Shown piece after piece: positions 29,451 to 40,718 of a stretch of 64,000 nucleotides of DNA. Within the stretch, counting starts at the first letter, position 1. Each line of letters opens with the position of its first letter. Source of the DNA: Escherichia phage EC148. Both the position numbers and the translations under genes were made by a program. Location: the sequence record NC_106721.1, one strand, 5' to 3'. The notes beneath the pieces were generated by a model. It was not told where the DNA came from. It did not search any database and saw nothing but the letters and a program-made list of their open reading frames with translations.

Positions 29451-29640
29451 ATGAATTTTTAATAAAGTTTAGTCACTTCATAAACTATACTACGAGATTC
29501 TTTATTACGTTCTATTAAATTAGAATATGCTTTTTCAGCTTCATTTTTAGTATTAAAGTCTATAACGTGGGAGGTATTCGCTCTATTTGATTGACTATAC
29601 CAGATAACTACTAATAATTTAAACATAATAGTCCTTAAGT

Positions 29641-29727: not shown

Positions 29728-29892
29728 AGAACCCGTTATTTCAACGGGATTTCTTTTTCAATAACAGGAGACTTATCAGTCATAACCGCCATTGCCATTT
29801 GTTGTAGAAATTCAAAGGTGAAGGCTACACGTTCTTCACCAATCTCTACTTCTACACGTTTCTTTTGTTTATCGATCTTGACTTTTAGGTTA

Positions 29893-30144
29893 TCAGCCAT
29901 TAGAGAGTACAGTACTGGTAGTTGGCAATACTACAGATGAAGCAACAGTGTTTAAATGCTTTCTCCAGTCTAGGTTAAATTGTTTTCGAAACTCTTCATA
30001 AGGTTCTTCTGGATAAAAGCTAAAACCTCCTTTCTCATCATTCAGGATAACAGAGCCGTCAGTTTGTTCGTATGCTCGGTATGTTTCTCCAATAACAATA
30101 ACTCGTTTTTCGGTACTTTTATTACGAAACTCAAAAACGTGCAT
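29893..30144 (-). CDS. hypothetical protein
   Basis: 83 aa ORF. Confidence 0.4.
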   Translation of the reverse strand: MHVFEFRNKSTEKRVIVIGETYRAYEQTDGSVILNDEKGGFSFYPEEPYEEFRKQFNLDWRKHLNTVASSVVLPTTSTVLSNG

Positions 30145-30160
30145 AATGTTTCCTTAAAGT

Positions 30161-30236
30161 TGGAGCGGCTAGAGGGAATCGAACCCTACTCAGCGAGGCT
30201 TGGAAGGCCTGCGGCACAACCCGTGTGCTTAACCGC
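30161..30236 (-). tRNA. tRNA-Gly (UCC)
   Basis: 76 nt; anticodon loop CTTCCAA; T-arm GGGAATCGAACCC. Confidence 0.6.
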
Positions 30237-30244
30237 TTATTGTT

Positions 30245-30320
30245 TGGCTGGAGAAGGAGGAATCGAACCTACCATTAACGGAGTCAAAGGCCGTTGTGCT
30301 AACCGTTACACTACTCTCCA
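30245..30320 (-). tRNA. tRNA-Gln (UUG)
   Basis: 76 nt; anticodon loop CTTTGAC. Confidence 0.55.
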
Positions 30321-30326
30321 ATTATT

Positions 30327-30402
30327 TGGCTGGGATGCCACGGATCGAACGTGGAACCTTCGGAGTCAGAGGCCGACGATCTGCCAATTGATCTACATCC
30401 CA
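30327..30402 (-). tRNA. tRNA-Gln (CUG)
   Basis: 76 nt; anticodon loop CTCTGAC. Confidence 0.55.
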
Positions 30403-30414
30403 ATAATTTTTATT

Positions 30415-30609
30415 CTACGGAAAAATTGTTGTTGGCTCAGATTCTTCCAAACGTTTGCCTTCATGATCAACACGAATAACGCCGCATCCTTCGCAAATCA
30501 CAACTGCACCATAACCTTCTTTGACCTCAGCTTCTGTAATCAAACCAGAAAGATCACCAGTATCTTTACCCCACATATCAATGGAGCATTGTTTGCAGAA
30601 ATCAGCCAT
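30415..30609 (-). CDS. small Cys-rich protein
   Basis: 64 aa; CxxC ... CxxC. Confidence 0.35.
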   Translation of the reverse strand: MADFCKQCSIDMWGKDTGDLSGLITEAEVKEGYGAVVICEGCGVIRVDHEGKRLEESEPTTIFP

Positions 30610-30632
30610 ATTTTATTTCCTATTTAAGTTAA

Positions 30633-30709
30633 TTTGGGGTGGCTAGTGGAATTCGAATCCACATAGGCCTGATTCACAATCAGGATCATTAACCAATTAT
30701 GATATAGCC
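30633..30709 (-). tRNA. tRNA-His (GUG)
   Basis: 77 nt (extra 5' G typical of His); anticodon loop TTGTGAA. Confidence 0.65.
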
Positions 30710-31077
30710 ACAATTGAAAACTCGCAGGGTTAGCGAAACCTTCCTCAATTAGCATGTTCTAGAATACTAATCAAGTTATCTCCTATTGCACGCAGCTCAA
30801 GACGAGTACGAATTTTCAATTGTGGCGGCTCTCAGAAACTCTTCTACTCTAGTCTTAGCAGCTTACTCCCGAACGCATGTCGGGGAAGTCTTACTAAGCG
30901 CATCAAATAGCACCGTTACACTTTGAGCCATTGGTGTATCAAGAAGCAGAAGGACTTGAACCTTCACGAGATAGACCATTTATCTCAGCCGCTTTATGAG
31001 GTATGTTGCAGGGAGTGGATGTTCCCTATAAACCTTTTAGGCAGCCCCGTCTACCGATTCCGGCATACTTCAGGATT

Positions 31078-31172
31078 TGGAGGTAGGTAAGGGGATCGAA
31101 CCCTTACACCGTATCACTACGATCAACCGATTTCAAGTCGGAGTCCAGCGCCAGCCATTGGATTGACCTACC
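31078..31172 (-). tRNA. tRNA-Ser (UGA), type II
   Basis: 95 nt; anticodon loop CTTGAAA; long variable arm. Confidence 0.5.
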
Positions 31173-31184
31173 ATATAAATTGTT

Positions 31185-31275
31185 TGGCGGAAGAGGAGAG
31201 ATTTGAACTCTCAAGCCGTTTTACCAGTCAGCCACTTTCCAAGCGGTTTTCGTCACCAATTCGATTTGCTCTTCC
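31185..31275 (-). tRNA. type II tRNA-like, anticodon unresolved
   Basis: 91 nt; perfect acceptor pairing and T-arm GAGAG-TTCAAAT-CTCTC but no canonical anticodon arm found by hand. Confidence 0.35.
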
Positions 31276-31311
31276 AATAACAAGATGATGCCTCTATCAC
31301 ACCAGGCAGTT

Positions 31312-31387
31312 ACGCCTCGCTGGGATTCGAACCCATTAAAACAGCTCAACCGAGATAGTAGGTTTAATTTACTCTGACCATCAAATT
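31312..31387 (-). tRNA. tRNA-like element, non-canonical
   Basis: T-arm GGGATTCGAACCC present but acceptor stem cannot be paired. Confidence 0.2.
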
Positions 31388-31464
31388 TGGTGCGTGACAA
31401 GGGATTCGAACCCTCAAAACCCGACTTCTAAGGACGGTATGTATGCCAATTCCATCAATCACGC
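31388..31464 (-). tRNA. tRNA, anticodon loop CTTAGAA (UAG, Leu by anticodon) on a class I body
   Basis: 77 nt; acceptor and T-arm clean; anticodon stem has one mismatch. Confidence 0.4.
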
Positions 31465-31469
31465 GTATT

Positions 31470-31548
31470 TGGTGGAGAATAACGGAATCGAACCGTTCTG
31501 ATGTCCTCGGTGCAAGCGAGGTGTCCACTCCATGCAGACCCATTCCCC
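31470..31548 (-). tRNA. tRNA-Ala (UGC)
   Basis: 79 nt; anticodon stem CCTCG/CGAGG, loop CTTGCAC. Confidence 0.55.
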
Positions 31549-31567
31549 AAATTATTTAGTTTACTAA

Positions 31568-31741
31568 GGCTATTAGCTCGGCGTAACTACAGCACCTTCG
31601 CTTCGAGCGGAAGGAACCGCGTCATCTCGCAAACCCGATACACTATTCAGTTGCCACTGAATCTAGTGGACTAATCTAGAACTTCTCCCGAATCGTAGGG
31701 ATCGTGCTTTTTGGCAGCCAGTCCTAGGTCGAGCTAATACC
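31568..31741 (-). ncRNA. structured RNA candidate closed by a 12 bp long-range stem
   Basis: GGCTATTAGCTCG at 31568 pairs with CGAGCTAATACC at 31730; internal GC-rich hairpins; no ORF; directly downstream of promoter 31787-31815. Confidence 0.3.
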
Positions 31742-31786
31742 TTAGTGAACTATGATGAGGATTTCTCCTCATCAATTTATATAAAT

Positions 31787-31815
31787 ATTATAACAAGAAA
31801 TTAAGCATTAAGCAA
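31787..31815 (-). promoter_or_regulatory. early promoter, TTGCTT-17-TATAAT, feeding the tRNA/structured-RNA unit
   Basis: conserved cassette; leader contains palindrome GATGAGGAGAAATCCTCATC. Confidence 0.55.
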
Positions 31816-31833
31816 CTGCGTTTTTCTTGAAAT

Positions 31834-31912
31834 TGGTAGATCGCCTGGGACTCGAACCCAGAACCTTCCGATTAAAAGTCGGATGCTACTAAACCTATTG
31901 AGCTAGCGATCT
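31834..31912 (-). tRNA. tRNA-Lys (UUU)
   Basis: 79 nt; anticodon stem TCCGA/TCGGA, loop CTTTTAA. Confidence 0.6.
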
Positions 31913-32101
31913 ATTAGTAACCATTATACACTTCTTTAATAGAGTGGACTTTTAAGTAAGGGTGATTAGTACTAAACTCTACCATTACTTCATCCCAATT
32001 TTTACCATAATGAGCGAGTAAGGATTTTGATGTATTCTTACCTAACCGTTTGTCACTTACTACTAATCGAAATACTTTCATTTCGAAATCCTCTATTAAA
32101 A

Positions 32102-32179
32102 TGGAAGCGGGTGCAGGAATCGAACCTACCTCTTTCTAGCTTATGAGACTAGCGATCTCTACCAGAGATCTAACCCGCA
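32102..32179 (-). tRNA. tRNA, anticodon CAU (Met or Ile-lysidine)
   Basis: 78 nt; D-stem GATC/GATC, anticodon loop CTCATAA. Confidence 0.6.
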
Positions 32180-32185
32180 ATTGTT

Positions 32186-32261
32186 TGGTCAGTGCGGCAG
32201 GACTCGAACCTGCGACCCGAAGCATCCAAGGCTCCCACGCTACCAACTGCGCTACGCACTG
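32186..32261 (-). tRNA. tRNA-Pro (UGG)
   Basis: 76 nt; anticodon loop CTTGGAT; T-arm GCAGG-TTCGAGT-CCTGC. Confidence 0.6.
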
Positions 32262-32270
32262 TTAATTCTT

Positions 32271-32468
32271 TTATTGTGGAGGAATATTAATAATTCGTCC
32301 GTCTACACAATAAACGGTACTAGGAATTGTACTATATATGTAGAAATTCTTTATATTACTCTCTCCGCCACAGAAATTTTTAGCAAATTCATACTCTTTA
32401 TTAATGGTTGAGTCAAGTTTAAAACAACCAGTAAGTAGGAATACAGACAGCAGTAAAACTTTTTTCAT
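32271..32468 (-). CDS. small lipoprotein
   Basis: 65 aa; signal peptide with lipobox LLTGC; own promoter upstream. Confidence 0.5.
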   Translation of the reverse strand: MKKVLLLSVFLLTGCFKLDSTINKEYEFAKNFCGGESNIKNFYIYSTIPSTVYCVDGRIINIPPQ

Positions 32469-32500
32469 TTTGCTTTCCTTCTCAACACTTTATAAGGTAT

Positions 32501-32529
32501 ATTATACAGAGAATTAAGCATAATAGCAA
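32501..32529 (-). promoter_or_regulatory. early promoter, TTGCTA-17-TATAAT
   Basis: conserved cassette upstream of the lipoprotein gene. Confidence 0.55.
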
Positions 32530-32679
32530 ATGAATTTTTAATAAATTTACTTATTGTGTAGGCCACCTGGAGGCTACCAACCCCACGGCTGACAAAGAAG
32601 TTTGCGAGACCTCTCTTAAGTGCCAGAATAGACCCGCCGATCTATCGGAACCTACATAATAAGTAAACTTTATAGTGTC

Positions 32680-32799
32680 ATTCTAGACAGGACTCGAACC
32701 TGTTATCACTTGTGCGGACTTACGAGAACCATTCTTTCACTCGAATCGAACGAGCTTCTGCCCTCGCCAAGCTGGTTTCCCCATCAACCACGCTAGAAT
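32680..32799 (-). tRNA. atypical 120 nt tRNA-like element (two T-arm-like hairpins)
   Basis: terminal 7 bp acceptor-like pairing ATTCTAG/CTAGAAT, T-arm ACAGG-TTCGAGT-CCTGT plus internal CTCG-TTCGATT-CGAG. Confidence 0.25.
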
Positions 32800-32810
32800 G
32801 TTTGATTGTT

Positions 32811-32915
32811 TTCAGTGCAAGAGTCCGAGTCTTGGACACGACCGCTTCGCAAGTACATAGGCAGCTTATCATGAGTCAGCACTTCCGAATTGCTAGCTCC
32901 GTGTTCTGCACTGAA
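32811..32915 (-). ncRNA. structured RNA candidate closed by TCAGTGCA/TGCACTGA
   Basis: 8 bp long-range inverted repeat enclosing about 85 nt of GC-richer sequence; overlapping plus-strand ORF looks spurious. Confidence 0.25.
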
Positions 32916-32921
32916 ATTTTA

Positions 32922-33269
32922 TTAGTTTAACCGTAAAGTATTATCTACTTCACCATTAATTGTTCGGCATTCTTCTGGGATTGCTGGTGTAGCCTTATAT
33001 TCCCACCATTCAGAACCGTCGTATTCACCACGTTCTAACCAAGTTCCATCAGTAAACCACACGTTACCATAAAGCAATTGCCCACCGAAACCAGAATCAT
33101 ATTTAAAGTCTAGATTATTTAGAAAATCTTCAATATCTTTTTCTGTATAACCTACGGGTAACACCCAAACTTCTTTGTCCCCATAATAACCGAATTCTAT
33201 CTTAATACACTTAACTTCAGAATTAATATTCTTTAAGGCAAGTAACAATTCTTCTTTAGCATTAATCAT
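32922..33269 (-). CDS. hypothetical protein
   Basis: 115 aa ORF. Confidence 0.45.
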   Translation of the reverse strand: MINAKEELLLALKNINSEVKCIKIEFGYYGDKEVWVLPVGYTEKDIEDFLNNLDFKYDSGFGGQLLYGNVWFTDGTWLERGEYDGSEWWEYKATPAIPEECRTINGEVDNTLRLN

Positions 33270-33295
33270 AGCATATTTCTCGTACTAGTTTAATT

Positions 33296-33372
33296 TGGCG
33301 CGACCGATGGGATTTGAACCCACATTCCCTCCCGTGACAGGGGAGTACCATTACCAAGCCAGCCCCGGTCGC
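33296..33372 (-). tRNA. tRNA-Asp (GUC)
   Basis: 77 nt; anticodon stem CTCCC/GGGAG, loop CTGTCAC. Confidence 0.65.
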
Positions 33373-33381
33373 ATAATTCAT

Positions 33382-33567
33382 TTACTCAGCTTTGAGTTTT
33401 TCAATAGCTGCATTAAGTTCTTTAAGAAACTTTTTTCGTACATTAAGACGGTTGAGACTTACTAGTATATCATGTTTAAGTTCTTCGATGTATTTCTTCT
33501 CAACTTCAATATTGTTGATAGTGCTATCACGATGAACTTCTAGCTGTGCAATTACATTCTTGGACAT
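33382..33567 (-). CDS. hypothetical coiled-coil protein
   Basis: 61 aa ORF. Confidence 0.3.
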   Translation of the reverse strand: MSKNVIAQLEVHRDSTINNIEVEKKYIEELKHDILVSLNRLNVRKKFLKELNAAIEKLKAE

Positions 33568-33669
33568 GCTTGTTTCCTCAGTTATTAATGAAAATGGTAT
33601 CTGTGACTGAATTCGATGTCAGCAATGATAGCTGGTTGGCTACCGGTTTACTTAACTCTACACAGAATT

Positions 33670-33752
33670 TGGCGGGCCGTGTAGGATTCGAACCTACGTT
33701 GTCTTTCGACATGGATTAACAGTCCACCGCCAAACCGCTTGGCTAACGACCC
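33670..33752 (-). tRNA. tRNA-Asn (GUU)
   Basis: 83 nt; anticodon loop CTGTTAA; unusually long (13 nt) variable region. Confidence 0.45.
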
Positions 33753-33904
33753 TAAATTTATATTGCTGACTAGGATTTTCACCTAGACGGAGTTAGCACC
33801 GTAGCGTGTAGCGGCATACCTCTCCAAACCGTGCCTCATCTTTCAATTACGGAGACAGTGTTCCTACGCGTGCCTGAATTGATTTAACAACTCTTTCAGC
33901 AAAT

Positions 33905-33980
33905 TGGACGACCGCATGAGATTTGAACTCACATAAAAAGGATTTGCAATCCTTCGCCTAAGCCATTCAGCCAACGGTCG
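33905..33980 (-). tRNA. tRNA-Cys (GCA)
   Basis: 76 nt; anticodon stem AAGGA/TCCTT, loop TTGCAAA. Confidence 0.6.
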
Positions 33981-34028
33981 ATTTATCTTGTTCTGTCATG
34001 TTGCTTCTCCAGTTCAATTTATGTAATT

Positions 34029-34057
34029 ATTATACAGAACTTTTGGAAACTAAGCAA
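34029..34057 (-). promoter_or_regulatory. early promoter, TTGCTT-17-TATAAT
   Basis: conserved cassette. Confidence 0.55.
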
Positions 34058-34337
34058 CTACATTTTTTAAAAATTTGATGCCTTTCTTTTTCTTCTTATA
34101 TTTCCACGTTAAGGGATTCTGTCGATTATGAACGCTTGAGATCTTTGTCTCGTCAAAGTTCTTCAATATCATGTAATCACAGGATAATTGTTCTAATGGA
34201 ATGTGATCACCGTCAAAAGCGTATACATAAGGCTGTTGACTAGCACGATAATGATAGACTTTGTTAATTCTACGCTTCAGCAACTTATCCGCGCAGTAAA
34301 TAAAGAAGTTTTCAGGATGCATCAGCAGCTCCCTCAA
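34050..34337 (-). CDS. hypothetical protein
   Basis: 95 aa ORF; 5' end may be shorter because the ORF start overlaps its own promoter. Confidence 0.3.
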   Translation of the reverse strand: MRELLMHPENFFIYCADKLLKRRINKVYHYRASQQPYVYAFDGDHIPLEQLSCDYMILKNFDETKISSVHNRQNPLTWKYKKKKKGIKFLKNVVA

Positions 34338-34339
34338 TT

Positions 34340-34414
34340 TGGTGCACCCTGTTCGTATCGAACGAACCTCTCAAGCTCTTCAGGCAAGCGCTAATCCATC
34401 TCAGCTAAAGGTGC
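34340..34414 (-). tRNA. tRNA-Phe (GAA), tentative
   Basis: 75 nt; anticodon loop CTGAAGA; anticodon stem has two U-U mismatches. Confidence 0.4.
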
Positions 34415-34420
34415 AAATTT

Positions 34421-34497
34421 TGGCAAACCTACTAGGACTCGAACCTAGACCGTACGGTTTTGGAGACCGACATGCTGTCCAGTAACACTCTAGGAAT
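34421..34497 (-). tRNA. tRNA-Trp (CCA)
   Basis: 77 nt; anticodon loop CTCCAAA; two acceptor mismatches. Confidence 0.45.
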
Positions 34498-34505
34498 GCA
34501 GGAAT

Positions 34506-34582
34506 TGGCGTCCTGTGCGGGGATCGAACCCACAAATCCTACCTTGAAAGGGTAGTGACTTTACCAGTTTGTCTAACAGGAC
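34506..34582 (-). tRNA. tRNA-Glu (UUC)
   Basis: 77 nt; anticodon stem CTACC/GGTAG, loop CTTTCAA. Confidence 0.6.
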
Positions 34583-34589
34583 TTAAATT

Positions 34590-34680
34590 TGGTGTTGGAT
34601 GATGGAGTCGAACCACCCGAGACCCTTCCGAGTCGGCAGATTTACAGTCTGCTTCGCTACCTCTACGATACTAATCCAAC
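34590..34680 (-). tRNA. tRNA-Tyr (GUA), type II
   Basis: 91 nt; anticodon stem GCAGA/TCTGC, loop CTGTAAA; long variable arm. Confidence 0.6.
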
Positions 34681-34761
34681 ATATTTAAAAGTATTCAAAT
34701 ACTAGTTTAAACACTTTTAGATATGTTTCCAAATTAGATAACTATTATATCAAGTTTTATG

Positions 34762-34800
34762 GCACTGAGCAAGTCAAATTTTAAAGAACTTGCTCAGTGC
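34762..34800 (-). terminator. 13 bp perfect hairpin (terminator or processing site)
   Basis: GCACTGAGCAAGT ... ACTTGCTCAGTGC immediately downstream of the TGA-containing ORF; no clear U-tract. Confidence 0.4.
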
Positions 34801-34808
34801 TGTATTAG

Positions 34809-35084
34809 TTAGTCGAACTTAGGAGCGACAGTTAAGGAGAATGGAAGTTCGAAAACTTCTTCGCCCTCATCACTAACAGTAATTACACGACCTTTAAGTT
34901 CAGACATTGAAATATCAATATCAGCTTTTGCATCTGGAGCCATGCCAGCTTCAATACATTTAGCTTTAACTTCCGGCAGAAGTTCTACATCGTAGAAATA
35001 AAGCCATTCAATCTCACCTTCCCAGCCTTCTCAGGATTTACAGATTGCACTTTCAATACCAGTTGCTATAACACGATTTTGCAT
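34809..35084 (-). CDS. early ORF interrupted by an in-frame TGA at codon 18
   Basis: promoter and conserved leader abut the ATG at 35084; 17 codons, then TGA (35031-35033), then 73 in-frame sense codons to TAA at 34809. Confidence 0.35.
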
Positions 35085-35114
35085 TCGTTAACTCCTTCAT
35101 CAATTTATATAACT

Positions 35115-35144
35115 ATTATACCAGAAATTTAAAGCAAAAGGCAA
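35115..35144 (-). promoter_or_regulatory. early promoter, TTGCCT-18-TATAAT
   Basis: conserved cassette with variant -35. Confidence 0.5.
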
Positions 35145-35174
35145 GTACATTTTTAAAAATTCTGTTTGGAGGAG

Positions 35175-35381
35175 CTAAACTCCAGATTCTTCAGCTAAGT
35201 CTAGGCTAATAAGAGATATAGCCATAATTGCTGCTCCGTGTTCTCTTTCTCCTGTCTCTTTAGCTAGGGTTATAATATCAAGAAATTGCTTATGAAAGTC
35301 TGCAACCTCTTGAGTCATACCTGCCTCAGCAATCATGCCTTTAAGCATGAAACGTTGTGCGGTAATTTCGGGATTAGCCAT
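35175..35381 (-). CDS. hypothetical protein
   Basis: 68 aa ORF. Confidence 0.4.
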   Translation of the reverse strand: MANPEITAQRFMLKGMIAEAGMTQEVADFHKQFLDIITLAKETGEREHGAAIMAISLISLDLAEESGV

Positions 35382-35556
35382 GTTGTTTCTCCAGTTTCAT
35401 GTTTAATAGTCTACAAATAAAATCAATGTCTTCATCTGTGCCTAGATCTCTATCTTCAAGAGTTGCCTTGAAGTTTTTCGTCAATTCCATGAGGATAACT
35501 TCTCTAGAACGACGTGTTGGCGGAGGTGGATGTCTATACATCTTATTTCCTTAAGT

Positions 35557-35633
35557 TGGTAGGGGTGGTGGGATTCGAACCCACAAAACCTGAATTTTAA
35601 GTCCAGTACCTATACCAATTCGATTACACCCCC
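35557..35633 (-). tRNA. tRNA, anticodon loop CTTAAAA (UAA, Leu by anticodon) on a class I body
   Basis: 77 nt; acceptor GGGGGTG, T-arm GTGGG-TTCGAAT-CCCAC; 5 nt variable loop. Confidence 0.4.
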
Positions 35634-35734
35634 ATGTAATCAGTTTATTAGTTGATACATATTATAGCCTAGTGAAAATCCTACTACTAGTCCCACAAAC
35701 CAACCAATATAATAATCTTTTAGTTTCACAGGTA

Positions 35735-35920
35735 TTATCCTCGTTCAATATCTAGGGAAACACCGCAGTTAGGATTAATACCTGTACCGTTGCAATTTGA
35801 ACAAATCCAGATATTGCAAAAAGTATCTCCTGCTTCTGCATCAGAACTTTCACCAATTCCCCTACACTCAGGGCAGGCACATTCTTCTAGCTCTTGCTTG
35901 AGTTCTTGAAACTTGGACAT
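35735..35920 (-). CDS. small Cys-rich protein
   Basis: 61 aa; CACPEC ... CSNCNG. Confidence 0.4.
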   Translation of the reverse strand: MSKFQELKQELEECACPECRGIGESSDAEAGDTFCNIWICSNCNGTGINPNCGVSLDIERG

Positions 35921-35929
35921 ATAGTCTCC

Positions 35930-36118
35930 TTAGTCAATTACTTTTGAGGCTTCAAGGGAGTCGATATAGTATACGTTTTCTACCATAATCATATAATCTG
36001 CCACTTTATCCATAGCTTGGGCCTCAGAGGTAGCTCTGGCTAACCTATATCCTTTTTTATATTCATCCGGGTATTCTCTATCTTGAATAAATACAACATA
36101 AACTATGTATAATTCCAC
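35930..36118 (-). CDS. hypothetical protein
   Basis: ORF track 35930..36265 runs into tRNA genes; start moved to a GTG with AGGGG RBS near 36118. Confidence 0.3.
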   Translation of the reverse strand: MELYIVYVVFIQDREYPDEYKKGYRLARATSEAQAMDKVADYMIMVENVYYIDSLEASKVID

Positions 36119-36138
36119 TTGTAATCCCCTAATTAAGT

Positions 36139-36216
36139 TGGTGGCTCCCCGAGGATTCGAACCTACGTACCTTCCGGTTATGAGCCGGGTGCTCATACCA
36201 TATGAGCTTGAGAACC
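36139..36216 (-). tRNA. tRNA, anticodon CAU (Met/fMet or Ile-lysidine)
   Basis: 78 nt; anticodon loop CTCATAA; third CAU tRNA in the cluster. Confidence 0.5.
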
Positions 36217-36222
36217 AGAATT

Positions 36223-36311
36223 TGGCGGAAGAAGTGGGAATCGAACCCACAAGGCTATATTTCAAACCGACAGATTAGCAATCTGCTGCAATACCGTTAT
36301 GCTATTCTTCC
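36223..36311 (-). tRNA. tRNA-Ser (GCU), type II
   Basis: 89 nt; anticodon loop TTGCTAA; long variable arm. Confidence 0.55.
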
Positions 36312-36332
36312 GAATTTATAAGATATATTATA

Positions 36333-36851
36333 TTAGAAATTTAGCTTCATAGCAAGAAAATTTTTCAAGTTTTCGGTAGACATCTCATCCACATCTACGG
36401 GAGAAACAAAGCCGTTTAATTTTCTAGCAAATTTTTCACCCGCAGGATCGTTGTCTCCGACAGCTACCAATTTAAAAGGTAATAATTTCAGTTGCTTTAA
36501 TAACGCTTTTCCTGGAGAAGAACCTAACATTGCCAGGGCTGGATAACCAGCGTTATGTAGCGCAACTGCCTTAAATACAGATTCAGCGATCAATACTACT
36601 TTTTCATCTCCATTGAGAGTTTCTAGTCCCCATACACACTGGGTAGTAGAATAAGTAAAATATTTAGCTTCAAAGGGACACTTACCATGACCTTTTGGAG
36701 CAGAAGGATTATACGTCTGATAGCCTCGCAACATCCCGGAGAAGTCATACAACGGGACTGTTAGCCATCCTTCCGGACTTAACCAGCAATGATATTTATC
36801 TGTATCAAATCCTCTGGATAAGAGGTGCTGTGTTAGCTCATCAACATTCAT
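36333..36851 (-). CDS. Toprim-like domain protein (putative)
   Basis: start taken at MNVDELT; C-terminal E ... VGDNDPAG resembles a Toprim acidic motif. Confidence 0.3.
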   Translation of the reverse strand: MNVDELTQHLLSRGFDTDKYHCWLSPEGWLTVPLYDFSGMLRGYQTYNPSAPKGHGKCPFEAKYFTYSTTQCVWGLETLNGDEKVVLIAESVFKAVALHNAGYPALAMLGSSPGKALLKQLKLLPFKLVAVGDNDPAGEKFARKLNGFVSPVDVDEMSTENLKNFLAMKLNF

Positions 36852-36881
36852 ATTTGGTTCCTCTCTCAAATTTATAGATAT

Positions 36882-36910
36882 ATTATACAGAGAATTTAGC
36901 ATTCAAGCAA
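36882..36910 (-). promoter_or_regulatory. early promoter, TTGCTT-17-TATAAT
   Basis: conserved cassette. Confidence 0.55.
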
Positions 36911-37026
36911 TCAAATTTTTTAACTTTTTAGAGGAAAATCATAGGGCACTTAAGGGTAGCAGATAAGTGGGGAGGACCAAAATTTGTGACCCCACTAAAA
37001 ATCCGGGGGCAATTTTTAAAGACCCC

Positions 37027-37055
37027 TTGACATTTTCGCTGGGGTAGTGTAAAGT
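37027..37055 (+). promoter_or_regulatory. plus-strand sigma70-type promoter (TTGACA-17-TAAAGT)
   Basis: consensus -35; differs from the TTGCTT-TATAAT early cassette; precedes the plus-strand three-gene cassette. Confidence 0.45.
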
Positions 37056-37117
37056 ATATGTTATGGATGAGTGATCAAAGAGACACACATTTTCTATATA
37101 CTAGGAGGTGTCAAAAT

Positions 37118-38107
37118 ATGACAGAAGAAGTAGCTAAGAGTCCTGAGACCGTCGCTAGCGTTGCAGCAGAACTGCACAGTCACGAGGAATCAGATAAGAA
37201 AAAGTGGGAGAAGGTCAGAGCCTACGAAGAAAAACATCGTGAACACGATGATGAAGAAGAAGATGACGATGATGAACATTGTCATAAATATGGAAAACAT
37301 AAAATGCAAGAACCAGTAAACGTATTCACTAGTGGCTTCCCTGGCCTACTGGGTGGTTACCCAGCAAACGCAGGTGCTTTCGGTGGTGAAGGTATGGGAC
37401 TATTCGGAGCTATCCTAATCGGTGCTCTATTAACCGGCGGATTCGGTGGTTTCGGTGGATTCGGTGGACGTGGTGTAGTTGGTGAAGGTACCGCAGTTGA
37501 TGCAGTACTTCAGAACCAAGATACCGCTAGTATTCTAGCAGCTATCAACACTACTCGTACAGAGGCTAACCAGGGTACTGGAGCTGTTTTAAGCGCAGTT
37601 AACAATGGTTTTAGCCAGACAACCCAAAACCAGAGCCGTGATACTCAGTCTGTACTAACTACGATCTACGGTACAGGTGCTAATCTGTCTAATCAGATCT
37701 GCCAGGAAACTCGCAACGTTATTCAGGGTCAGTTCGATCTTTCTCGCCAGATTGATCAATCTTTCGCAGCTAACCAGATAGCTCGTGCACAAGATAAGTT
37801 TGATTCTGCACAGATCGCTTTCCAGCAGACTTTACAAACTAATAACCAGTTTGCCGCTGTTCAGGCTCAGATGTGTGCTAACCAGAACTCTCTGGAACGT
37901 CAGATCGCTGAATGTTGCTGTGAACTTCAGACTGCGATCGCTGGTGTAACTACTGCGCGTATCCAGGATGAGTTAGACGCATGTCGCCTACGTGAAGCAA
38001 TCGCTGCGGGTAGCGGTGCTAACGGTCAGGTAATTAATCAAATCGCTTTAAGTCTTGGTGCTATCACTCAGACTCTGGCTGGTCTGCAGGCTAAACTGCC
38101 GGCTTAA
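37118..38107 (+). CDS. membrane-anchored Gly-zipper / Gln-Asn-rich protein
   Basis: start moved to ATG with AGGAGG RBS; acidic N-terminus, GLFGAILIGALLTGGFGGFGGFGG hydrophobic Gly-rich segment, then Q/N/T-rich repeats and a CCC motif. Confidence 0.55.
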   Translation: MTEEVAKSPETVASVAAELHSHEESDKKKWEKVRAYEEKHREHDDEEEDDDDEHCHKYGKHKMQEPVNVFTSGFPGLLGGYPANAGAFGGEGMGLFGAILIGALLTGGFGGFGGFGGRGVVGEGTAVDAVLQNQDTASILAAINTTRTEANQGTGAVLSAVNNGFSQTTQNQSRDTQSVLTTIYGTGANLSNQICQETRNVIQGQFDLSRQIDQSFAANQIARAQDKFDSAQIAFQQTLQTNNQFAAVQAQMCANQNSLERQIAECCCELQTAIAGVTTARIQDELDACRLREAIAAGSGANGQVINQIALSLGAITQTLAGLQAKLPA

Positions 38108-38128
38108 TATTAAGGGGAGGAGCCCATT

Positions 38129-38545
38129 ATGAGTAAATATGGTTTTGTAAATAACGGACTTAATCAAAGTATGGGCTCCCAGCAGCCCATTCCGGGTCTG
38201 GATAACCCCTACTTACAACAGTTGCAACAGCGTTTAGCAGAAGCGCAACAGATGCAGCAACAACTCCAGCAAAACCCTGGAAGTGTGAGTCCTATGCAAA
38301 TGATGCAGCAAATGAGCGGGCAGTCGCAAATGCCTCAACAAATGCAGCAACAGGTGCCTCAGCAGCAAGTTCAGCAACAAACCCAACAACCGCAGGTTTC
38401 TGCGGAAGGACAGGCAGTACTAGCCCTTTTCGAAGACTTCGCAAAGACAGAGGATGGGAAACAGCTTGTATCACTTATGGGTAAGTTTAATAGCTTCTGC
38501 CAAAGCCAAGTTGCAAAAGCTCAAAATGGGGGTAGTAACTCCTAA
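38129..38545 (+). CDS. Gln-rich low-complexity protein
   Basis: 138 aa; GGGGAGG RBS; poly-Q/M tracts. Confidence 0.5.
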   Translation: MSKYGFVNNGLNQSMGSQQPIPGLDNPYLQQLQQRLAEAQQMQQQLQQNPGSVSPMQMMQQMSGQSQMPQQMQQQVPQQQVQQQTQQPQVSAEGQAVLALFEDFAKTEDGKQLVSLMGKFNSFCQSQVAKAQNGGSNS

Positions 38546-38554
38546 GGAGGAAAT

Positions 38555-38749
38555 ATGTGTTGCAGAAAATCTGTTTCGTGCTGCCCAGTGCCTGTAGCAC
38601 GTTGTTGCTCTCCAGCAATGTTTACGCAAATACCGGCGTTCAATCCCTTTGCCTTTAAGCCTACTCTTATCCTGCCCCCTAGAGTAGATTTTCAGTCAAG
38701 ATTGGCCTCCCGTATGGGTGGTTGCTGTACACCGAGAGTATGGTTCTAA
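38555..38749 (+). CDS. Cys-rich peptide with four CC doublets
   Basis: 64 aa; AAGGAGG RBS; MCCRKSVSCCPVPVARCCSP ... GGCCTPRVWF. Confidence 0.45.
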   Translation: MCCRKSVSCCPVPVARCCSPAMFTQIPAFNPFAFKPTLILPPRVDFQSRLASRMGGCCTPRVWF

Positions 38750-38757
38750 ACCAAAAA

Positions 38758-38796
38758 CAAAAGCCCCTGCCGAAAGGTAAGGGGCTTTTTCTTTTG
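38758..38796 (+). terminator. rho-independent terminator
   Basis: stem AGCCCCT/AGGGGCT followed by TTTTTCTTTT. Confidence 0.65.
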
Positions 38797-38804
38797 CCTT
38801 AAAT

Positions 38805-38842
38805 ACAGAAAAGCCCGCGCTCTCGTAGGAAACGCGGGCTTG
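38805..38842 (-). terminator. rho-independent terminator
   Basis: stem AGCCCGCG/CGCGGGCT with U-tract on the minus strand after the SPFH gene stop. Confidence 0.6.
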
Positions 38843-38864
38843 GTTCGAAGATTACGTGTAACTA

Positions 38865-39812
38865 TTACTTGTTACGCATATCCATGATCATTTGACCATC
38901 GTAGCCAGTACCTACCACAGTCTGAGGTACACCACCTTGATACTTCTGAGCACGGATCATTTCAACTTCCAGTTGTTTCCAACGAATCATTTCAGGAGTA
39001 ATGGTACGTTGCAATGCGGCGTTAGCTTCAGCTTCTTTCTTAGCTGCGTACAGTTTAGCATCTGCGTCACGTTCATTAGCAATAGCTTGGTTGTTACGAG
39101 CTTCACGATCTGCTTCTGCTTGTTTAACTTTTTGCTGTGCTTCCTGTTCAACGCGAGCAAGTTCAGCTTTCGCAGCATTAACTTGCTCTTCACGAACTTT
39201 GGTATTCTGTACCTGTTCCATGATTACTGGCGGCAAGGTAATATCCTGAAGGAATACCTGCTTAACTGTGTAACCATATGGGCGCGCATACTCTTCAACT
39301 TCCTGTTGAATTGCAGTTTGCAATTGAGCCTGAATTTTAGCATCAAATAAATCTTGTGCTTTAGGTACAGACTTACCAAACTCACGAATAGTAGACAGTA
39401 ATTTTTCAGTTACATACTTGTCTAGTGCCTGATCCTGAGTACCTGCGTTAATACGGTTAATCGGTGCTTTAGAACCATCAAACTGCAACATAACAGTCAG
39501 GTCAACAGTGGATTTAAACTTATCCTGGCTAGGAACCTGAAGTTTATCTAATTTTACAGCAATATCTTTTGTACTAAAAGTATCGAAAGATGCAAACGGG
39601 TTTACAAGATGGAAGCCCGGCAATACTGGATTAGGGTCTACTTTACCCAGGAATGTTTGGGTTTTAACCGTACCATCAGAAACAATAGTATATGAATTAA
39701 AAGCTAGGATTAAACCTGCTAAACCAACTACAGCACCAATACCCCAACGTTTAATAGTACGAATTACTTTCTGCTCAGAAGTCAGTTCTTTCATATTTTT
39801 AGTAGCAAACAT
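38865..39812 (-). CDS. SPFH/band-7 (prohibitin/HflKC-like) membrane protein
   Basis: 315 aa; N-terminal TM helix, SPFH-like core, Ala/Glu/Gln coiled coil, prohibitin-like C-terminus. Confidence 0.55.
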   Translation of the reverse strand: MFATKNMKELTSEQKVIRTIKRWGIGAVVGLAGLILAFNSYTIVSDGTVKTQTFLGKVDPNPVLPGFHLVNPFASFDTFSTKDIAVKLDKLQVPSQDKFKSTVDLTVMLQFDGSKAPINRINAGTQDQALDKYVTEKLLSTIREFGKSVPKAQDLFDAKIQAQLQTAIQQEVEEYARPYGYTVKQVFLQDITLPPVIMEQVQNTKVREEQVNAAKAELARVEQEAQQKVKQAEADREARNNQAIANERDADAKLYAAKKEAEANAALQRTITPEMIRWKQLEVEMIRAQKYQGGVPQTVVGTGYDGQMIMDMRNK

Positions 39813-39846
39813 ATATTTCCTTTGTTTTAGTTACAGTTAATAAAAT

Positions 39847-39921
39847 TGGCCGAGGTGACAGGATTCGAACCTGCATAAAGGAATTTAGAAGACTCCTGCC
39901 TCTCCCTTAGACTACACCCCG
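39847..39921 (-). tRNA. tRNA-Arg (UCU)
   Basis: 75 nt; anticodon loop CTTCTAA; T-arm ACAGG-TTCGAAT-CCTGC. Confidence 0.5.
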
Positions 39922-40423
39922 TTTAAGTATTTTTAAGAACTCTCGTAAAAACTCTTAAAAATACAGACGATACCGGGAGAGTCATAAGTCTCACTCATTA
40001 AGTATTTCAAGACAAAATACAGTAACGTCTATTATTTTCCAGTTTAAGTCAGGGTGACTTAGTGGTTATGTCCTGCGGTATATTGAGGACTCGGTTAGGC
40101 TTGGGGTCATGACTTCCCACCTTTTGCTGCTACTCAACAGGAGTTATCGCGAATTACCTGTGCTATTGTGCACCATTAGTGACATCTCTCATGTCAGCAT
40201 TTCCCACTTTGTGGATAGCTTGAAAAACTACTCCGATATGGAGAAAGAACTTCACTATCCTAGAATACCTTCTAAAGTTCTTCTTTAGCCTGGACATAGT
40301 TAAATCGTAATAAAACTATTCAGCAGACTGGTTGGTTAGTCTGGAACCAACTACCGCGTGGTTTAGGCAGTGCGCAACTAACCTCGGAAGCTTTTATGTT
40401 AAAAGCATCAGTTATCCAGTTCT

Positions 40424-40493
40424 TACCGACCGTAGGATTCGAACCTACATCTTCCACCAGTTACGGCTTGATAATACCAATTATACTAGGACG
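40424..40493 (-). tRNA. tRNA-like element, anticodon unresolved
   Basis: T-arm GTAGG-ATTCGAA-CCTAC and plausible acceptor pairing; internal arms not resolved. Confidence 0.25.
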
Positions 40494-40718
40494 GCAGTGT
40501 TACTACATAAGTGATTTCCACACCCCACTATTTATAAATCAGAGAAGAGTTTAGGGGAGAGGTTTCAGACGCCTCATTTTACACGTTCTAGCCACTAACC
40601 GGGATTGCCGCCCCCTGTGTACTAGTTTTACAACTAACCCACCGACTCTATTCAATGCGCTCCGGTTGGGATTCTGCACTCAGCGTAATCGGCTCGCTGT
40701 TCCCTAATTTATGAATAT

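What the first reader, a model, noticed from the sequence alone, without database searches (positions are those of the whole stretch)
37027..38842. Self-contained plus-strand three-gene cassette embedded in the minus-strand tRNA/early region
A cassette with its own TTGACA-type promoter (37027-37055), three strong RBSs and its own terminator (38758-38796) sits antisense to about 40 kb of minus-strand early genes, convergent with an SPFH gene. It encodes (1) a membrane-anchored protein with an acidic N-terminus, a Gly-zipper segment (GLFGAILIGALLTGGFGGFGGFGG) and long Q/N/T-rich repeats, (2) a Gln-rich low-complexity protein and (3) a 64 aa peptide with four CC doublets. GC content and codon choice (CGT, CTG, GGT) look different from the AT-rich flanks, as expected for a moron-like insertion. 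I recognise no family for any of the three proteins. The architecture suggests a host-directed module (superinfection exclusion, envelope or defence interference), which is inference only.
Basis: partly seen in the sequence, partly recalled or inferred. Interest (0 to 1): 0.8.

Follow-up and report, generated by a model that had tools for sequence, protein, structure and literature searches.

The report
Mobile thiol-rich membrane operon of T5
The three genes are real and form a self-contained, dispensable operon of phage T5 (promoter P12, T5.077, T5.078, a 64-codon gene, a bidirectional terminator) that also occurs in unrelated phages and encodes a long-helix membrane protein plus two cysteine-bearing partners of unknown function.

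Summary
The window is a T5-like phage, and the cassette is the already annotated T5 unit: promoter P12, T5.077, T5.078, an unnamed 64-aa CDS and an "efficient bidirectional terminator". All three ORFs are under purifying selection (dN/dS 0.14, 0.14, 0.29). No Pfam, NCBIfam, PHROG, PADLOC, PDB or fold search gives a function.

New findings:
- Only about half of roughly 436 T5-like records carry the cassette. Empty sites keep the last codons of ORF3, so they arose by deletion, not by failure to insert.
- The laboratory strain T5Mos lacks P12 and half of T5.077 yet grows.
- The same trio, at 35-45% identity, sits in an N4-like phage and three other phage contigs. There it has a divergent zinc-ribbon gene in place of P12.
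- ORF1 belongs to a broad phage-only superfamily (120 clusters) defined by a helix motif, Q-[LMI]-A-E-CCC-E-[LI]-K. Members occur in phages of Gram-negative and Gram-positive hosts.
- AlphaFold predicts one 155-residue helix after the Gly-rich membrane segment.

The raised GC reflects amino-acid composition (ORF1 GC3 is ordinary), not foreign origin.

Best reading, at low confidence: a non-essential, horizontally mobile envelope complex aimed at the host or at competitors. It is not a spanin, holin, kinase or virion part.

The parts
36963..37026 (+). Left end of the cassette-specific DNA. Homology with cassette-less relatives stops at about 36961-36964. The stretch holds GGGG/CCCC inverted repeats upstream of the promoter.
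   Evidence: BLAST of the window against empty sites in S132, TrudiRoth and DT571/2 and the junction sequences. The fold of 36960-37030 is not better than shuffles (z = -1.1).
37027..37055 (+). Sigma-70 promoter P12 (TTGACA, 17 nt spacer, TAAAGT).
   Evidence: Consensus scan, 10 of 12 matches. Annotated as promoter P12 in T5 AY543070 and phage 5 AJ604531, and as 'putative early promoter' in AY587007. The -35 and -10 blocks are nearly identical in L033, whose proteins are 36% identical. TTGACA-17-TAGAGT is present in L012.
37103..37108 (+). Shine-Dalgarno AGGAGG of ORF1.
   Evidence: Read from the sequence. Annotated as an RBS in AJ604531.
37118..38107 (+). ORF1 = T5.077 homologue, 329 aa. It has an acidic, His-bearing N-terminal helix, a Gly-rich hydrophobic segment, a long helical C-terminal domain and an invariant CCC.
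   Evidence: ORF list. phrog_8119, function unknown, E = 4.5e-204. dN/dS 0.14. Family alignment A1. AlphaFold model, pLDDT 72.
37151..37258 (+). ORF1 residues 12-47: confidently predicted N-terminal helix carrying the near-invariant H22-E23-x-x-D26.
   Evidence: AlphaFold block means 92-97 across about residues 11-40, falling to 66 for residues 41-50. Near-invariant columns.
37394..37468 (+). ORF1 residues 93-117, MGLFGAILIGALLTGGFGGFGGFGG: probable single transmembrane segment.
   Evidence: Hessa 19-mer sum 1.56 kcal/mol and Kyte-Doolittle 1.72. The SPFH neighbour's anchor scores 2.25 and 1.79. G92, G94, L100, G102, L104, G108, G111 and G113 are invariant.
37631..38095 (+). ORF1 residues 172-326: one continuous predicted alpha-helix of 155 residues (about 23 nm).
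   Evidence: AlphaFold with a 75-sequence alignment; block means are 80-96 for residues 181-300, lower at both ends (64 for 171-180; 78, 83 and 73 for 301-329). No significant structural match in PDB or BFVD.
37913..37921 (+). Codons for C266-C267-C268, the core of the family motif Q-[LMI]-A-E-CCC-E-[LI]-K.
   Evidence: Invariant in A1. Present in 84 of 117 representatives from the exhaustive search. Motif frequencies.
38114..38122 (+). Shine-Dalgarno GGGGAGGAG of ORF2.
   Evidence: Read from the sequence. Annotated as an RBS in AJ604531.
38129..38545 (+). ORF2 = T5.078 homologue, 138 aa. It has a conserved N-terminal helix (YLQQLQQRLAEAQ), a Q/P/M-rich spacer of variable length, and a conserved C-terminal domain of about 40 aa with an invariant Cys124.
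   Evidence: Alignments A3 and A4. phrog_7894, function unknown. dN/dS 0.14. All 124 homologues are small phage proteins.
38544..38550 (+). Shine-Dalgarno AAGGAGG of ORF3.
   Evidence: Read from the sequence. Annotated as an RBS in AJ604531.
38555..38749 (+). ORF3, 64 aa (CDS AAS77125 in T5, left unannotated in most records). It starts MCC, has four CC doublets, an NPF motif and an aromatic C-terminus.
   Evidence: tblastn finds it in 220 phage records, 219 of them nearly full length. dN/dS 0.29. Divergent equivalents occupy the same position in L010, L012, L013, L033, L044 and L045.
38716..38749 (+). 3' end of ORF3, which survives as the scar in cassette-less relatives. This marks the right end of the common deletion.
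   Evidence: Empty sites read GTTGCTGTAATAAGAGTATATGGTTCTAA, which encodes GCCNKSIWF-stop, the alternative ORF3 allele.
38759..38796 (.). Bidirectional intrinsic terminator (ter1).
   Evidence: Fold energies: -22.8 kcal/mol (z = -4.4) on the plus strand and -21.2 kcal/mol (z = -2.5) on the minus strand. Annotated as an efficient bidirectional terminator.
38811..38841 (-). Not part of the cassette. This is the terminator hairpin of the SPFH gene, and it overlaps T5's major single-strand interruption (32.6% nick, GCGC).
   Evidence: Terminator scan. Fold -20.7 kcal/mol, z = -4.2. Nick annotations in AY543070 and AY587007. The hairpin is retained in empty sites.

Best explanation
This is the phage T5 P12 operon. 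It is a dispensable accessory ('moron-type') transcription unit that moves between unrelated lytic phages and builds a thiol-rich complex at the host inner membrane.

Proposed anatomy:
- ORF1 is a single-pass membrane protein.
- Its charged N-terminal helix (HExxD motif, His/Asp/Glu-rich) stays in the cytoplasm.
- The Gly-rich segment crosses the membrane.
- About 200 helical residues, including one 155-residue helix of roughly 23 nm with an invariant CCC cluster, project to the other side as an oligomeric stalk.
- ORF2 (two conserved helical ends joined by an elastic Gln/Pro spacer) and ORF3 (a CC-doublet peptide) have no export signals. They would dock on the ORF1 N-terminal domain, held by cysteine chemistry, either metal-thiolate or disulfide.

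Proposed role: acting on the host envelope or on competitors, for example excluding superinfecting phage or countering an envelope-linked host response. It is not for replication, morphogenesis or lysis.

Shown: the unit's anatomy, selection, dispensability, mobility and family spread.
Inferred: topology, the contacts between partners, and the role.
For: Independent unit: promoter, three RBSs and a bidirectional terminator are annotated as P12 and ter1 in T5 and phage 5. The promoter is conserved more strongly than the proteins.

Real genes: dN/dS is 0.14, 0.14 and 0.29. ORF1 has a high CAI (rank 4 of 78), and all three ORFs have strong RBSs.

Accessory: the whole cassette is in 216-220 of about 436 T5-like records. 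There are at least two independent deletions, one with an ORF3 scar. T5Mos carries the deletion 30661-38625, which removes P12 (37954-38028) and codons 1-187 of T5.077 (38064-39029), yet it is propagated.

Mobile: the trio occurs at 35-45% identity in an N4-like contig with a virion RNA polymerase (L010/L011), a contig with a Mu-type portal (L013), a contig where it lies next to a holin-lysozyme-Rz cassette (L044), and L045.

Membrane anchor: hydrophobicity equals that of the neighbouring SPFH protein's anchor, and the Gly positions are invariant.

Stalk: AlphaFold predicts a helix at 172-326, with block-mean pLDDT of 80-96 over residues 181-300 and lower values at both ends.

N-in topology:
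- The 92-residue N-tail carries 11 Lys/Arg. Such a tail is unlikely to be translocated.
- The N-terminal domain co-occurs with ORF2 and ORF3. All seven long-form contexts have both partners. The four short forms (eiAU, phiWae15, L034, Clostridium HMD-PC1) and three soluble forms (L039, L041, L042) have neither.

Not lysis: eiAU has its own holin, spanin and endolysin about 19 kb from its family member. L044 has a complete lysis cassette beside the trio. The family also occurs in Clostridium phages.
Against: - No experiment, and no homology to a characterised protein, supports any particular role.
- The conserved Arg just after the hydrophobic segment, and the net-negative residues before it, fit the opposite topology (N-out, C-in) for the short forms.
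- Hydrophobic periodicity in the helical domain is weak: best period 3.70, and 35 of 500 shuffles reach it. A classical heptad coiled coil is therefore not shown.
- Soluble family members without any membrane segment (for example P0251 and P0168) show that the CCC helix does not need a membrane.
- One long form, P0157 (L046), has no ORF2 or ORF3 next to it.
- PADLOC has no match. No library of anti-defence proteins was available.
- Expression timing is unknown.
Confidence: 0.35

Rival explanations
1. A cytoplasm-facing metal- or thiol-binding complex. ORF1 would be anchored N-out/C-in, or only peripherally, so that its CCC helix, the Cys124 domain of ORF2 and the CC doublets of ORF3 all sit in the reducing cytoplasm and coordinate a soft metal (Zn, Cu(I), Ni). 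Alternatively they would buffer thiols, with the His/Asp/Glu-rich N-terminus as a second metal site.
For: - Cysteines are invariant in all three proteins.
- ORF2 and ORF3 have no signal peptide and no hydrophobic segment.
- An Arg is conserved right after the hydrophobic segment, and the residues before it are acidic. The positive-inside rule then favours C-in.
- His-rich tracts recur: up to 16 His in the N-domains of relatives, His-rich N-termini in P0151 and P0153, and a His-rich protein (gp09) next to the eiAU member.
- H22-E23-x-x-D26 is near-invariant on a confidently predicted helix.
Against: - A 92-residue N-tail with 11 Lys/Arg is a poor substrate for N-tail translocation.
- His content varies greatly between close relatives and is low in the most divergent cassettes.
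- There is no match to any metal-binding family in Pfam or NCBIfam.
- The co-occurrence of the N-domain with ORF2 and ORF3 places the partners on the N-terminal side, not the C-terminal side.
Confidence: 0.2
2. A lysis-related, spanin-like or fusion-protein-like device. ORF1 would act like an i-spanin or a class I fusion protein: a membrane-active Gly-rich segment plus a periplasm-spanning helix locked by disulfides. ORF3 would be a Pro/Cys-rich partner. Together they would help disrupt or fuse the envelope, or tune lysis timing as a holin/antiholin set does.
For: - The architecture resembles lambda Rz: an N-terminal anchor, long helices and cysteines. That comparison is from my own knowledge of Rz.
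- The predicted helix is about 23 nm, close to the width of the periplasm.
- ORF3 is small and rich in Pro and Cys.
- The best, though non-significant, PDB sequence matches are influenza HA2 residues 1-95 aligned in register from the fusion peptide. GLFGAI is identical, at E = 0.19.
- Three family members lie within about 1.5 kb of lysis genes (L034 VanY-like, L042 lysozyme, L044 holin-lysozyme-Rz).
Against: - ORF3 has no signal peptide or lipobox.
- The cassette is dispensable and is missing from half of T5-like phages.
- eiAU and L044 already have their own Rz-like spanin.
- Family members occur in Clostridium perfringens phages, whose hosts have no outer membrane.
- No holin or spanin Pfam match.
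- The HA2 match is not significant, and ORF1 lacks a second membrane anchor.
Confidence: 0.1
3. A virion or morphogenesis component, such as an abundant helical scaffold, an internal protein or a fibre-associated protein that is expressed at high level.
For: - ORF1 has high codon adaptation and a strong RBS.
- It has a long helix, as scaffolds and fibres do.
- The eiAU member sits directly after the tail genes.
Against: - The cassette lies in the tRNA/early region, far from the late genes, behind a sigma-70 promoter that is annotated as early.
- It is absent from half of the relatives and disrupted in viable T5Mos.
- It moves between phages with unrelated virions: sipho-, podo- and N4-like.
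- Published counts of T5 virion proteins (16, as cited in PMC8624392) were not checked for T5.077.
Confidence: 0.05

Closest known systems
Phage morons / accessory transcription units (for example HK97 gp15, lambda bor and lom, T4 imm and sp)
   Same: The unit has its own promoter and terminator and sits between genes of a conserved backbone in the opposite orientation. It is present or absent among close relatives and dispensable in the laboratory. Its main product is membrane-anchored. It is shared by otherwise unrelated phages.
   Different: It sits in strictly lytic phages, so there is no prophage expression. It has three or four co-inherited genes rather than one. In T5-like phages the polymorphism comes from deletions of an old cassette. 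GC3 gives no sign of foreign origin. There is no sequence relationship to any characterised moron product.
Two-component spanins (lambda Rz/Rz1)
   Same: There is an N-terminal membrane anchor followed by long helices that carry conserved cysteines, and a small Pro/Cys-rich protein is encoded close by. The predicted helix length is close to the width of the periplasm.
   Different: ORF3 has no lipoprotein signal. The genes are not embedded or overlapping in the Rz/Rz1 manner. The cassette is not in a lysis cassette and is not needed for growth. It coexists with bona fide Rz genes (eiAU, L044). The family extends to phages of Gram-positive hosts. ORF1 has an extra 92-residue N-terminal domain.
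Influenza haemagglutinin HA2 and other class I fusion subunits
   Same: A Gly-rich hydrophobic segment (GLFGAI is identical to the HA2 N-terminus) is followed by a long Q/N-rich helix and then a cysteine cluster. HA2 chains are the top PDB sequence hits.
   Different: The match is not significant (E = 0.19 to 8). The hydrophobic segment is internal, not a freed N-terminus. There is no C-terminal anchor and no heptad signal. This is resemblance only.
T4 holin T with antiholins RI and RIII
   Same: A single-pass membrane protein with a large extramembrane domain that contains cysteines, plus two small partner proteins.
   Different: There is no sequence or profile similarity. T5-like phages and eiAU have separate lysis genes. 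The cassette is dispensable.
PHROG families 8119, 9288 and 16490 (function unknown)
   Same: ORF1 is a full-length member of phrog_8119. It cross-hits 9288 (Edwardsiella and Aeromonas phages) and 16490 (Clostridium phages), which together with metagenomic relatives form the CCC-helix superfamily.
   Different: These are uncharacterised clusters and give no functional information.

Membership tests
Phage moron / accessory transcription unit | Own promoter and own terminator flanking the genes | tested here: met
   TTGACA-17-TAAAGT, conserved in divergent cassettes. Bidirectional hairpin terminator. Annotated as P12 and ter1.
Phage moron / accessory transcription unit | Present or absent among otherwise syntenic relatives, and dispensable | tested here: met
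   The whole cassette is in 216-220 of about 436 records. Empty sites in S132, TrudiRoth, DT571/2 and AKFV33. The T5Mos deletion removes P12 and half of T5.077.
Phage moron / accessory transcription unit | Composition that differs from the backbone, indicating acquisition | tested here: inconclusive
   GC is 0.47-0.48, z = 2.3-2.7. ORF1 GC3 is 0.35 (z = 0.4), ORF2 GC3 is 0.45 and ORF3 GC3 is 0.41. The excess is mostly amino-acid driven.
Phage moron / accessory transcription unit | Found in unrelated phage backbones (horizontal mobility) | tested here: met
   N4-like contig with vRNAP, Mu-portal contig, L044 and L045.
Two-component spanin | o-spanin with a lipoprotein signal peptide and lipobox Cys | tested here: not met
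   ORF3 starts MCCRKSVSCC. Its maximum 19-mer hydropathy is 0.97, and it has no hydrophobic h-region.
Two-component spanin | i-spanin: type II N-terminal anchor with a periplasmic coiled coil | tested here: inconclusive
   A hydrophobic segment and a long helix are present. Topology is untested, the heptad signal is weak, and there is an extra N-terminal domain.
Two-component spanin | Part of the lysis cassette and required for lysis of Gram-negative hosts | tested here: not met
   Dispensable. eiAU and L044 carry separate Rz-like genes. Relatives occur in Clostridium phages.
Class I viral fusion protein (HA2-like) | Significant sequence or fold similarity, and a C-terminal membrane anchor | tested here: not met
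   Best PDB profile hit is HA2 at E = 0.19. Foldseek finds no hit with E below 1. ORF1 has only one hydrophobic segment.
Holin / antiholin families | Match to a holin or antiholin profile | tested here: not met
   No Pfam, NCBIfam or PHROG lysis family at E up to 1.
cAMP-dependent protein kinase catalytic subunit (the 'kapc' label on ORF2 in AY587007 and derived records) | Protein kinase domain | tested here: not met
   No kinase family in Pfam or NCBIfam. ORF2 is 138 aa, made of a Q-rich spacer plus a 40-aa domain. The label appears.
Known anti-phage defence proteins (PADLOC) | Match to a defence-system profile | tested here: not met
   No hit at E up to 1 for ORF1-3 or for the SPFH neighbour.
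Superinfection exclusion proteins (functional class) | Blocks DNA entry or adsorption of a second phage | not testable with these tools
   This needs plating or injection assays. Only the membrane-anchored, accessory character is consistent with it.
CCC-helix superfamily (phrog_8119/9288/16490 and metagenomic relatives; uncharacterised) | Helix motif L-x2-Q-[LMI]-A-E-CCC-E-[LI]-K | tested here: met
   ORF1 reads RQIAECCCELQ. 120 cluster representatives at E up to 1e-3, and 84 of 117 carry CCC. PHROG cross-hits.

The most novel reading that the evidence does not exclude
The cassette is the best-conserved example of a previously unrecognised, widespread phage system built around the CCC helix. 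That system would be an oligomeric stalk, covalently or metal-locked and anchored in the membrane by a Gly-rich, fusion-peptide-like segment, which remodels or gates the host envelope. In its long form, two cytoplasmic cysteine-bearing partners and (outside T5) a divergent zinc-ribbon regulator would control it. This would be a new class of phage competition or counter-defence machinery shared by T5-like, N4-like, P22-like and Gram-positive phages.
Probability: 0.15. Interest if true: 0.75.

Novelty: new variant of a known kind. Interest (0 to 1): 0.5.

Why it matters
T5 has been a model phage for decades, yet this strongly signalled operon still has no function. The analysis turns a 'hypothetical' trio into a defined and testable object.

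- It is dispensable, and natural and laboratory deletion strains already exist (T5Mos, DT571/2, AKFV33, BASEL Bas30 versus Bas26/27/32).
- It travels as a unit between unrelated lytic phages.
- Its main protein belongs to a phage-only superfamily of at least 120 sequence clusters, with an unusual invariant triple cysteine on a very long helix.

If the role proves to be exclusion or counter-defence at the envelope, it would add a new protein class to phage-phage and phage-host conflict. It could also help explain host-range differences among therapeutic T5-like Salmonella and E. coli phages.

The analysis also corrects a 'cAMP-dependent protein kinase' label that has propagated through the databases.

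Tried and rejected
- **Profile libraries for ORF1-3** (Pfam, NCBIfam, PHROGs, PADLOC): only unknown-function PHROGs and sub-threshold noise such as RIFIN and TFIIA.
- **PDB sequence search:** nothing for ORF2 or ORF3. Only non-significant HA2 hits for ORF1.
- **First AlphaFold run** (18 sequences): pLDDT 46, unusable. The second run (75 sequences) was usable, but Foldseek against PDB and BFVD gave no hit with E below 1. The top rows (spliceosome, vimentin) are generic long helices.
- **Heptad or hendecad repeat idea:** periodicity is weak (35 of 500 shuffles reach it), and there is no internal repeat.
- **Foreign-origin GC signature:** rejected, because ORF1 GC3 is ordinary.
- **IMG/VR scan:** returned only T5-like loci.
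- **Literature searches** by gene names, accessions, T5 transcriptomics and the ECCCE motif: no functional paper. Glukhov 2018 is not held. One search failed on a term that was too short.
- **Rfam:** no RNA family in the cassette or its leader.
- **The upstream GGGG/CCCC inverted repeats as a structured element:** the fold is no better than shuffles.
- **The 49-aa minus-strand ORF 36939-37088** (annotated in phage MM-1): it overlaps P12 and has no support, so I treated it as spurious.
- **** failed on a one-base frame error in my ORF1 start. I corrected the start to 37118.


Full report
**Identity of the region**

The window is a T5-like phage (Tequintavirus). The 2-kb query is 100% identical to T5_ev212 and SUT_E420/E520, and 97-98% identical to many Salmonella and Escherichia T5-like phages. 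The cassette is already annotated.
- In T5 (AY543070) it reads: promoter P12, T5.077, T5.078, an unnamed 64-aa CDS (AAS77125), and an 'efficient bidirectional rho-independent transcription terminator'. One of T5's major single-strand interruptions follows directly.
- Salmonella phage 5 (AJ604531) annotates 'P12, ORF 327aa, ORF 138aa, ORF 64aa, ter1'.
- AY587007 calls the promoter 'putative early', splits ORF1 in two, and labels ORF2 'cAMP-dependent protein kinase catalytic subunit'. Later records copy that label. Nothing supports it: no kinase domain is found.

**Check of the observation**

- The ORF1 start is the ATG at 37118, after AGGAGG.
- All 21 tRNAs are on the minus strand, as are nearly all ORFs between about 9 and 53 kb.
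- The convergent gene is an SPFH/Band 7 protein.
- GC is raised (0.47-0.48 against 0.389 +/- 0.034), but ORF1 GC3 is ordinary (0.35). The excess reflects Ala/Gly/Gln content.
- Only ORF1 shows high-expression codon usage (CAI 0.45, rank 4 of 78).
- The 'repeats' in ORF1 are compositional, not true repeats.

**Are they genes?**

Across 15-24 distinct T5-like alleles, dN/dS is 0.14 for ORF1, 0.14 for ORF2 and 0.29 for ORF3. Most genome records leave ORF3 unannotated, but tblastn finds it in 220 records, nearly full length in 219.

**Accessory status**

About 436 phage records match the flanks, but only 216-220 carry the cassette.
- In S132 and TrudiRoth (Epseptimavirus) and DT571/2 (Tequintavirus), the flanks are joined by a short spacer. 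The spacer reads GTTGCTGTAATAAGAGTATATGGTTCTAA, which encodes GCCNKSIWF-stop. That is exactly the alternative allele of the ORF3 C-terminus.
- These sites are therefore deletions of about 36963-38716, not virgin sites.
- AKFV33 has a different and larger deletion.
- The PARIS study used strain T5Mos, which carries the deletion 30661-38625 in AY543070 coordinates (PMC11464382). That removes P12 (37954-38028) and the first 187 codons of T5.077 (38064-39029). The cassette is therefore dispensable for growth on laboratory E. coli.

**Mobility**

ORF1 relatives at 35-45% identity lie in five kinds of context:
- two divergent T5-like contigs (L012, L033);
- an N4-like contig that encodes a virion RNA polymerase (L010/L011);
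- a 61-kb contig with a Mu-type portal (L013);
- a contig where the cassette is divergent from a holin-lysozyme-Rz cassette (L044);
- L045.

In every one of these, an ORF2 homologue and a small cysteine-doublet ORF follow, and in those inspected (L010, L012, L013 and L033) a terminator hairpin comes after them.
- ORF3 equivalents share little beyond an N-terminal MCC (MSCNCGC in L044), further CC doublets, Pro-rich stretches such as RCCPMPVPRCC, an NPF motif and usually an aromatic C-terminus.
- ORF2 has a conserved N-terminal helix, a Q/P/M spacer of very variable length, and a conserved 40-residue C-terminal domain with an invariant Cys.
- The T5-like cassettes share the promoter. In L033 the block AAATTTTAAAGACCCCTTGACATTTT...TGTAAAGTATA is almost unchanged, although the proteins are 36% identical.
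- The four non-T5 cassettes instead have a divergently transcribed gene of about 50 codons directly upstream. It encodes a zinc ribbon (C..CG...CPECG.WF......Q.YC.P.CR.RK.R, resembling the N-terminus of lambda NinG). This may be a regulator.
- In the N4-like contig, as in T5-like phages, the cassette abuts a tRNA cluster.

**The ORF1 superfamily**

An exhaustive profile search of 1.8 billion cluster representatives found 120 proteins at E up to 1e-3.
- Their common feature is a helix motif, L-x2-Q-[LMI]-A-E-CCC-E-[LI]-K. It is present in 84 of 117 representatives.
- Some members have the N-terminal Gly-rich hydrophobic segment. Others are soluble, with different N-terminal repeats.
- All contexts inspected are phage-like: a P22-like contig where the gene stands alone against the flow (L039), L041, L042, Edwardsiella phage eiAU gp08, Aeromonas phiWae15, and Clostridium perfringens phages.
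- PHROGs 8119, 9288 and 16490 cross-hit one another, and all have unknown function.

**Structure**

With 75 sequences AlphaFold gives a mean pLDDT of 72.
- There is a confident N-terminal helix at 12-47, which carries the near-invariant H22-E23-x-x-D26.
- The acidic linker and the Gly-rich segment are predicted with low confidence.
- There is one uninterrupted helix from 172 to 326, with block-mean pLDDT of 80-96 over residues 181-300 and lower values at the two ends, about 23 nm long.
- Foldseek finds nothing significant.
- The hydrophobic segment is as membrane-competent as the neighbouring SPFH protein's anchor.
- Hydrophobic periodicity is weak.

**Mechanism**

The family occurs in phages of Gram-positive hosts. 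It coexists with complete lysis cassettes in eiAU and L044. It is dispensable. ORF3 also lacks a lipobox. Together these points argue against a spanin or holin role.

The top PDB sequence hits are influenza HA2, aligned from the fusion peptide (GLFGAI is identical). The E-value is 0.19, so this is a resemblance only.

Two facts favour an N-in, C-out topology:
- The 92-residue N-tail carries 11 Lys/Arg.
- The N-terminal domain co-occurs with ORF2 and ORF3, which have no export signals. All seven long-form contexts have both partners, and none of the seven short or soluble contexts has either.

The conserved Arg after the hydrophobic segment argues the other way.

I therefore favour, at low confidence, an accessory envelope complex. 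It would consist of a membrane-anchored stalk, oligomerised and possibly cysteine-locked, with two cytoplasmic cysteine-bearing partners. Its purpose would be to act on the host envelope or on competitors.

The alternatives are a cytoplasmic metal/thiol complex, a lysis-associated device and a virion component. They are ranked in the rivals section. None of the roles has been tested.

**Novelty**

The cassette itself has been annotated for about twenty years. What is new here:
- its status as a mobile three- or four-gene module;
- the deletion scars;
- the CCC-helix superfamily;
- the predicted 155-residue helix;
- the correction of the kinase label.

It is best filed as an unusual variant of the phage accessory-operon (moron) kind, with protein content unlike any characterised system.

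Noticed in passing
window 38811-38841 (minus-strand hairpin, contains GCGC): This hairpin is the SPFH gene's terminator. It coincides with one of T5's major single-strand DNA interruptions ('nick 3, 32.6%'; consensus Pu-pGCGC), as annotated in AY543070 and AY587007. It is retained in cassette-less relatives.
   Followed up: partly
L010 3759-3911 (-), L013 3749-3892 (-), L044 2744-2917 (-), L045 about 2850-2960 (-): A zinc-ribbon gene of about 50 codons (C..CG...CPECG.WF......Q.YC.P.CR.RK.R, resembling the N-terminus of lambda NinG) is transcribed divergently, directly upstream of ORF1, in all four non-T5 cassettes. It is absent from T5-like phages. It may be the module's regulator. Most gene callers missed it.
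   Followed up: partly
window 38129-38545 (ORF2) and records AY587007, ESCO30/40, HMD-P3, EH3, UTK0010: ORF2 is labelled 'cAMP-dependent protein kinase catalytic subunit (kapc)' in several GenBank and UniRef entries. It has no kinase domain. The label looks like a low-complexity (poly-Gln) artefact that has been propagated.
   Followed up: yes
window 39922-40650 (-), including the tRNA-like match at 40424-40495: The stretch downstream of tRNA-Arg corresponds to 'RNAX, stable RNA with unknown functions' in the T5, phage 5 and DT571/2 records. Infernal finds a tRNA-like element inside it that ARAGORN missed. A second missed tRNA (tRNA-Ile2/Met CAU) lies at 36142-36216.
   Followed up: no
L036 4346-4711 (eiAU gp09) and L038 4340-4618: The gene after the short-form CCC protein in eiAU encodes a protein with a His-rich N-terminus (HHHYYH...HPKHHDSH). 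Its C-terminal half is shared with the Aeromonas phage neighbour. This echoes the His-rich N-terminal domain of the T5-like ORF1.
   Followed up: no
L037 3419-3652 (Clostridium phage HMD-PC1) and L034 804-1190: Small Gln/Met/Pro-rich proteins (NPMQLIQMMQ..., NPQMIQQ...) sit directly upstream of the short-form CCC proteins. Their composition is similar to the ORF2 spacer and recalls the Met/Gln-rich STI1/ubiquilin-type motifs that bind hydrophobic segments. No significant family match was found.
   Followed up: partly
window 36939-37088 (-): A 49-codon GTG ORF is annotated as a CDS in phage MM-1. It overlaps promoter P12 on the opposite strand and has no homology support. It is probably a gene-caller artefact.
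   Followed up: no
L010 3278-3675; L012 and L033 flanks; window 28571-39921: The cassette lies inside or beside tRNA gene clusters both in T5-like phages and in the unrelated N4-like contig. tRNA clusters may therefore serve as exchange points for this module.
   Followed up: partly
L004 and L005 718-2452 (S132, TrudiRoth): In cassette-less Epseptimaviruses, the DNA left of the deletion scar carries NadR-like nicotinamide-nucleotide adenylyltransferase and PnuC transporter genes. Neither gene lies in the corresponding stretch left of the cassette in this window, which holds the primase-like gene and tRNA genes.
   Followed up: no
P0218, P0248, P0250, P0196 (metagenomic relatives): These are long soluble members of the CCC-helix family. 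They have N-terminal arrays of 'ERNG / DTRR'-type repeats and Arg/Ser- or Arg/Asp-rich C-terminal tails. Their origin and function are unknown.
   Followed up: no
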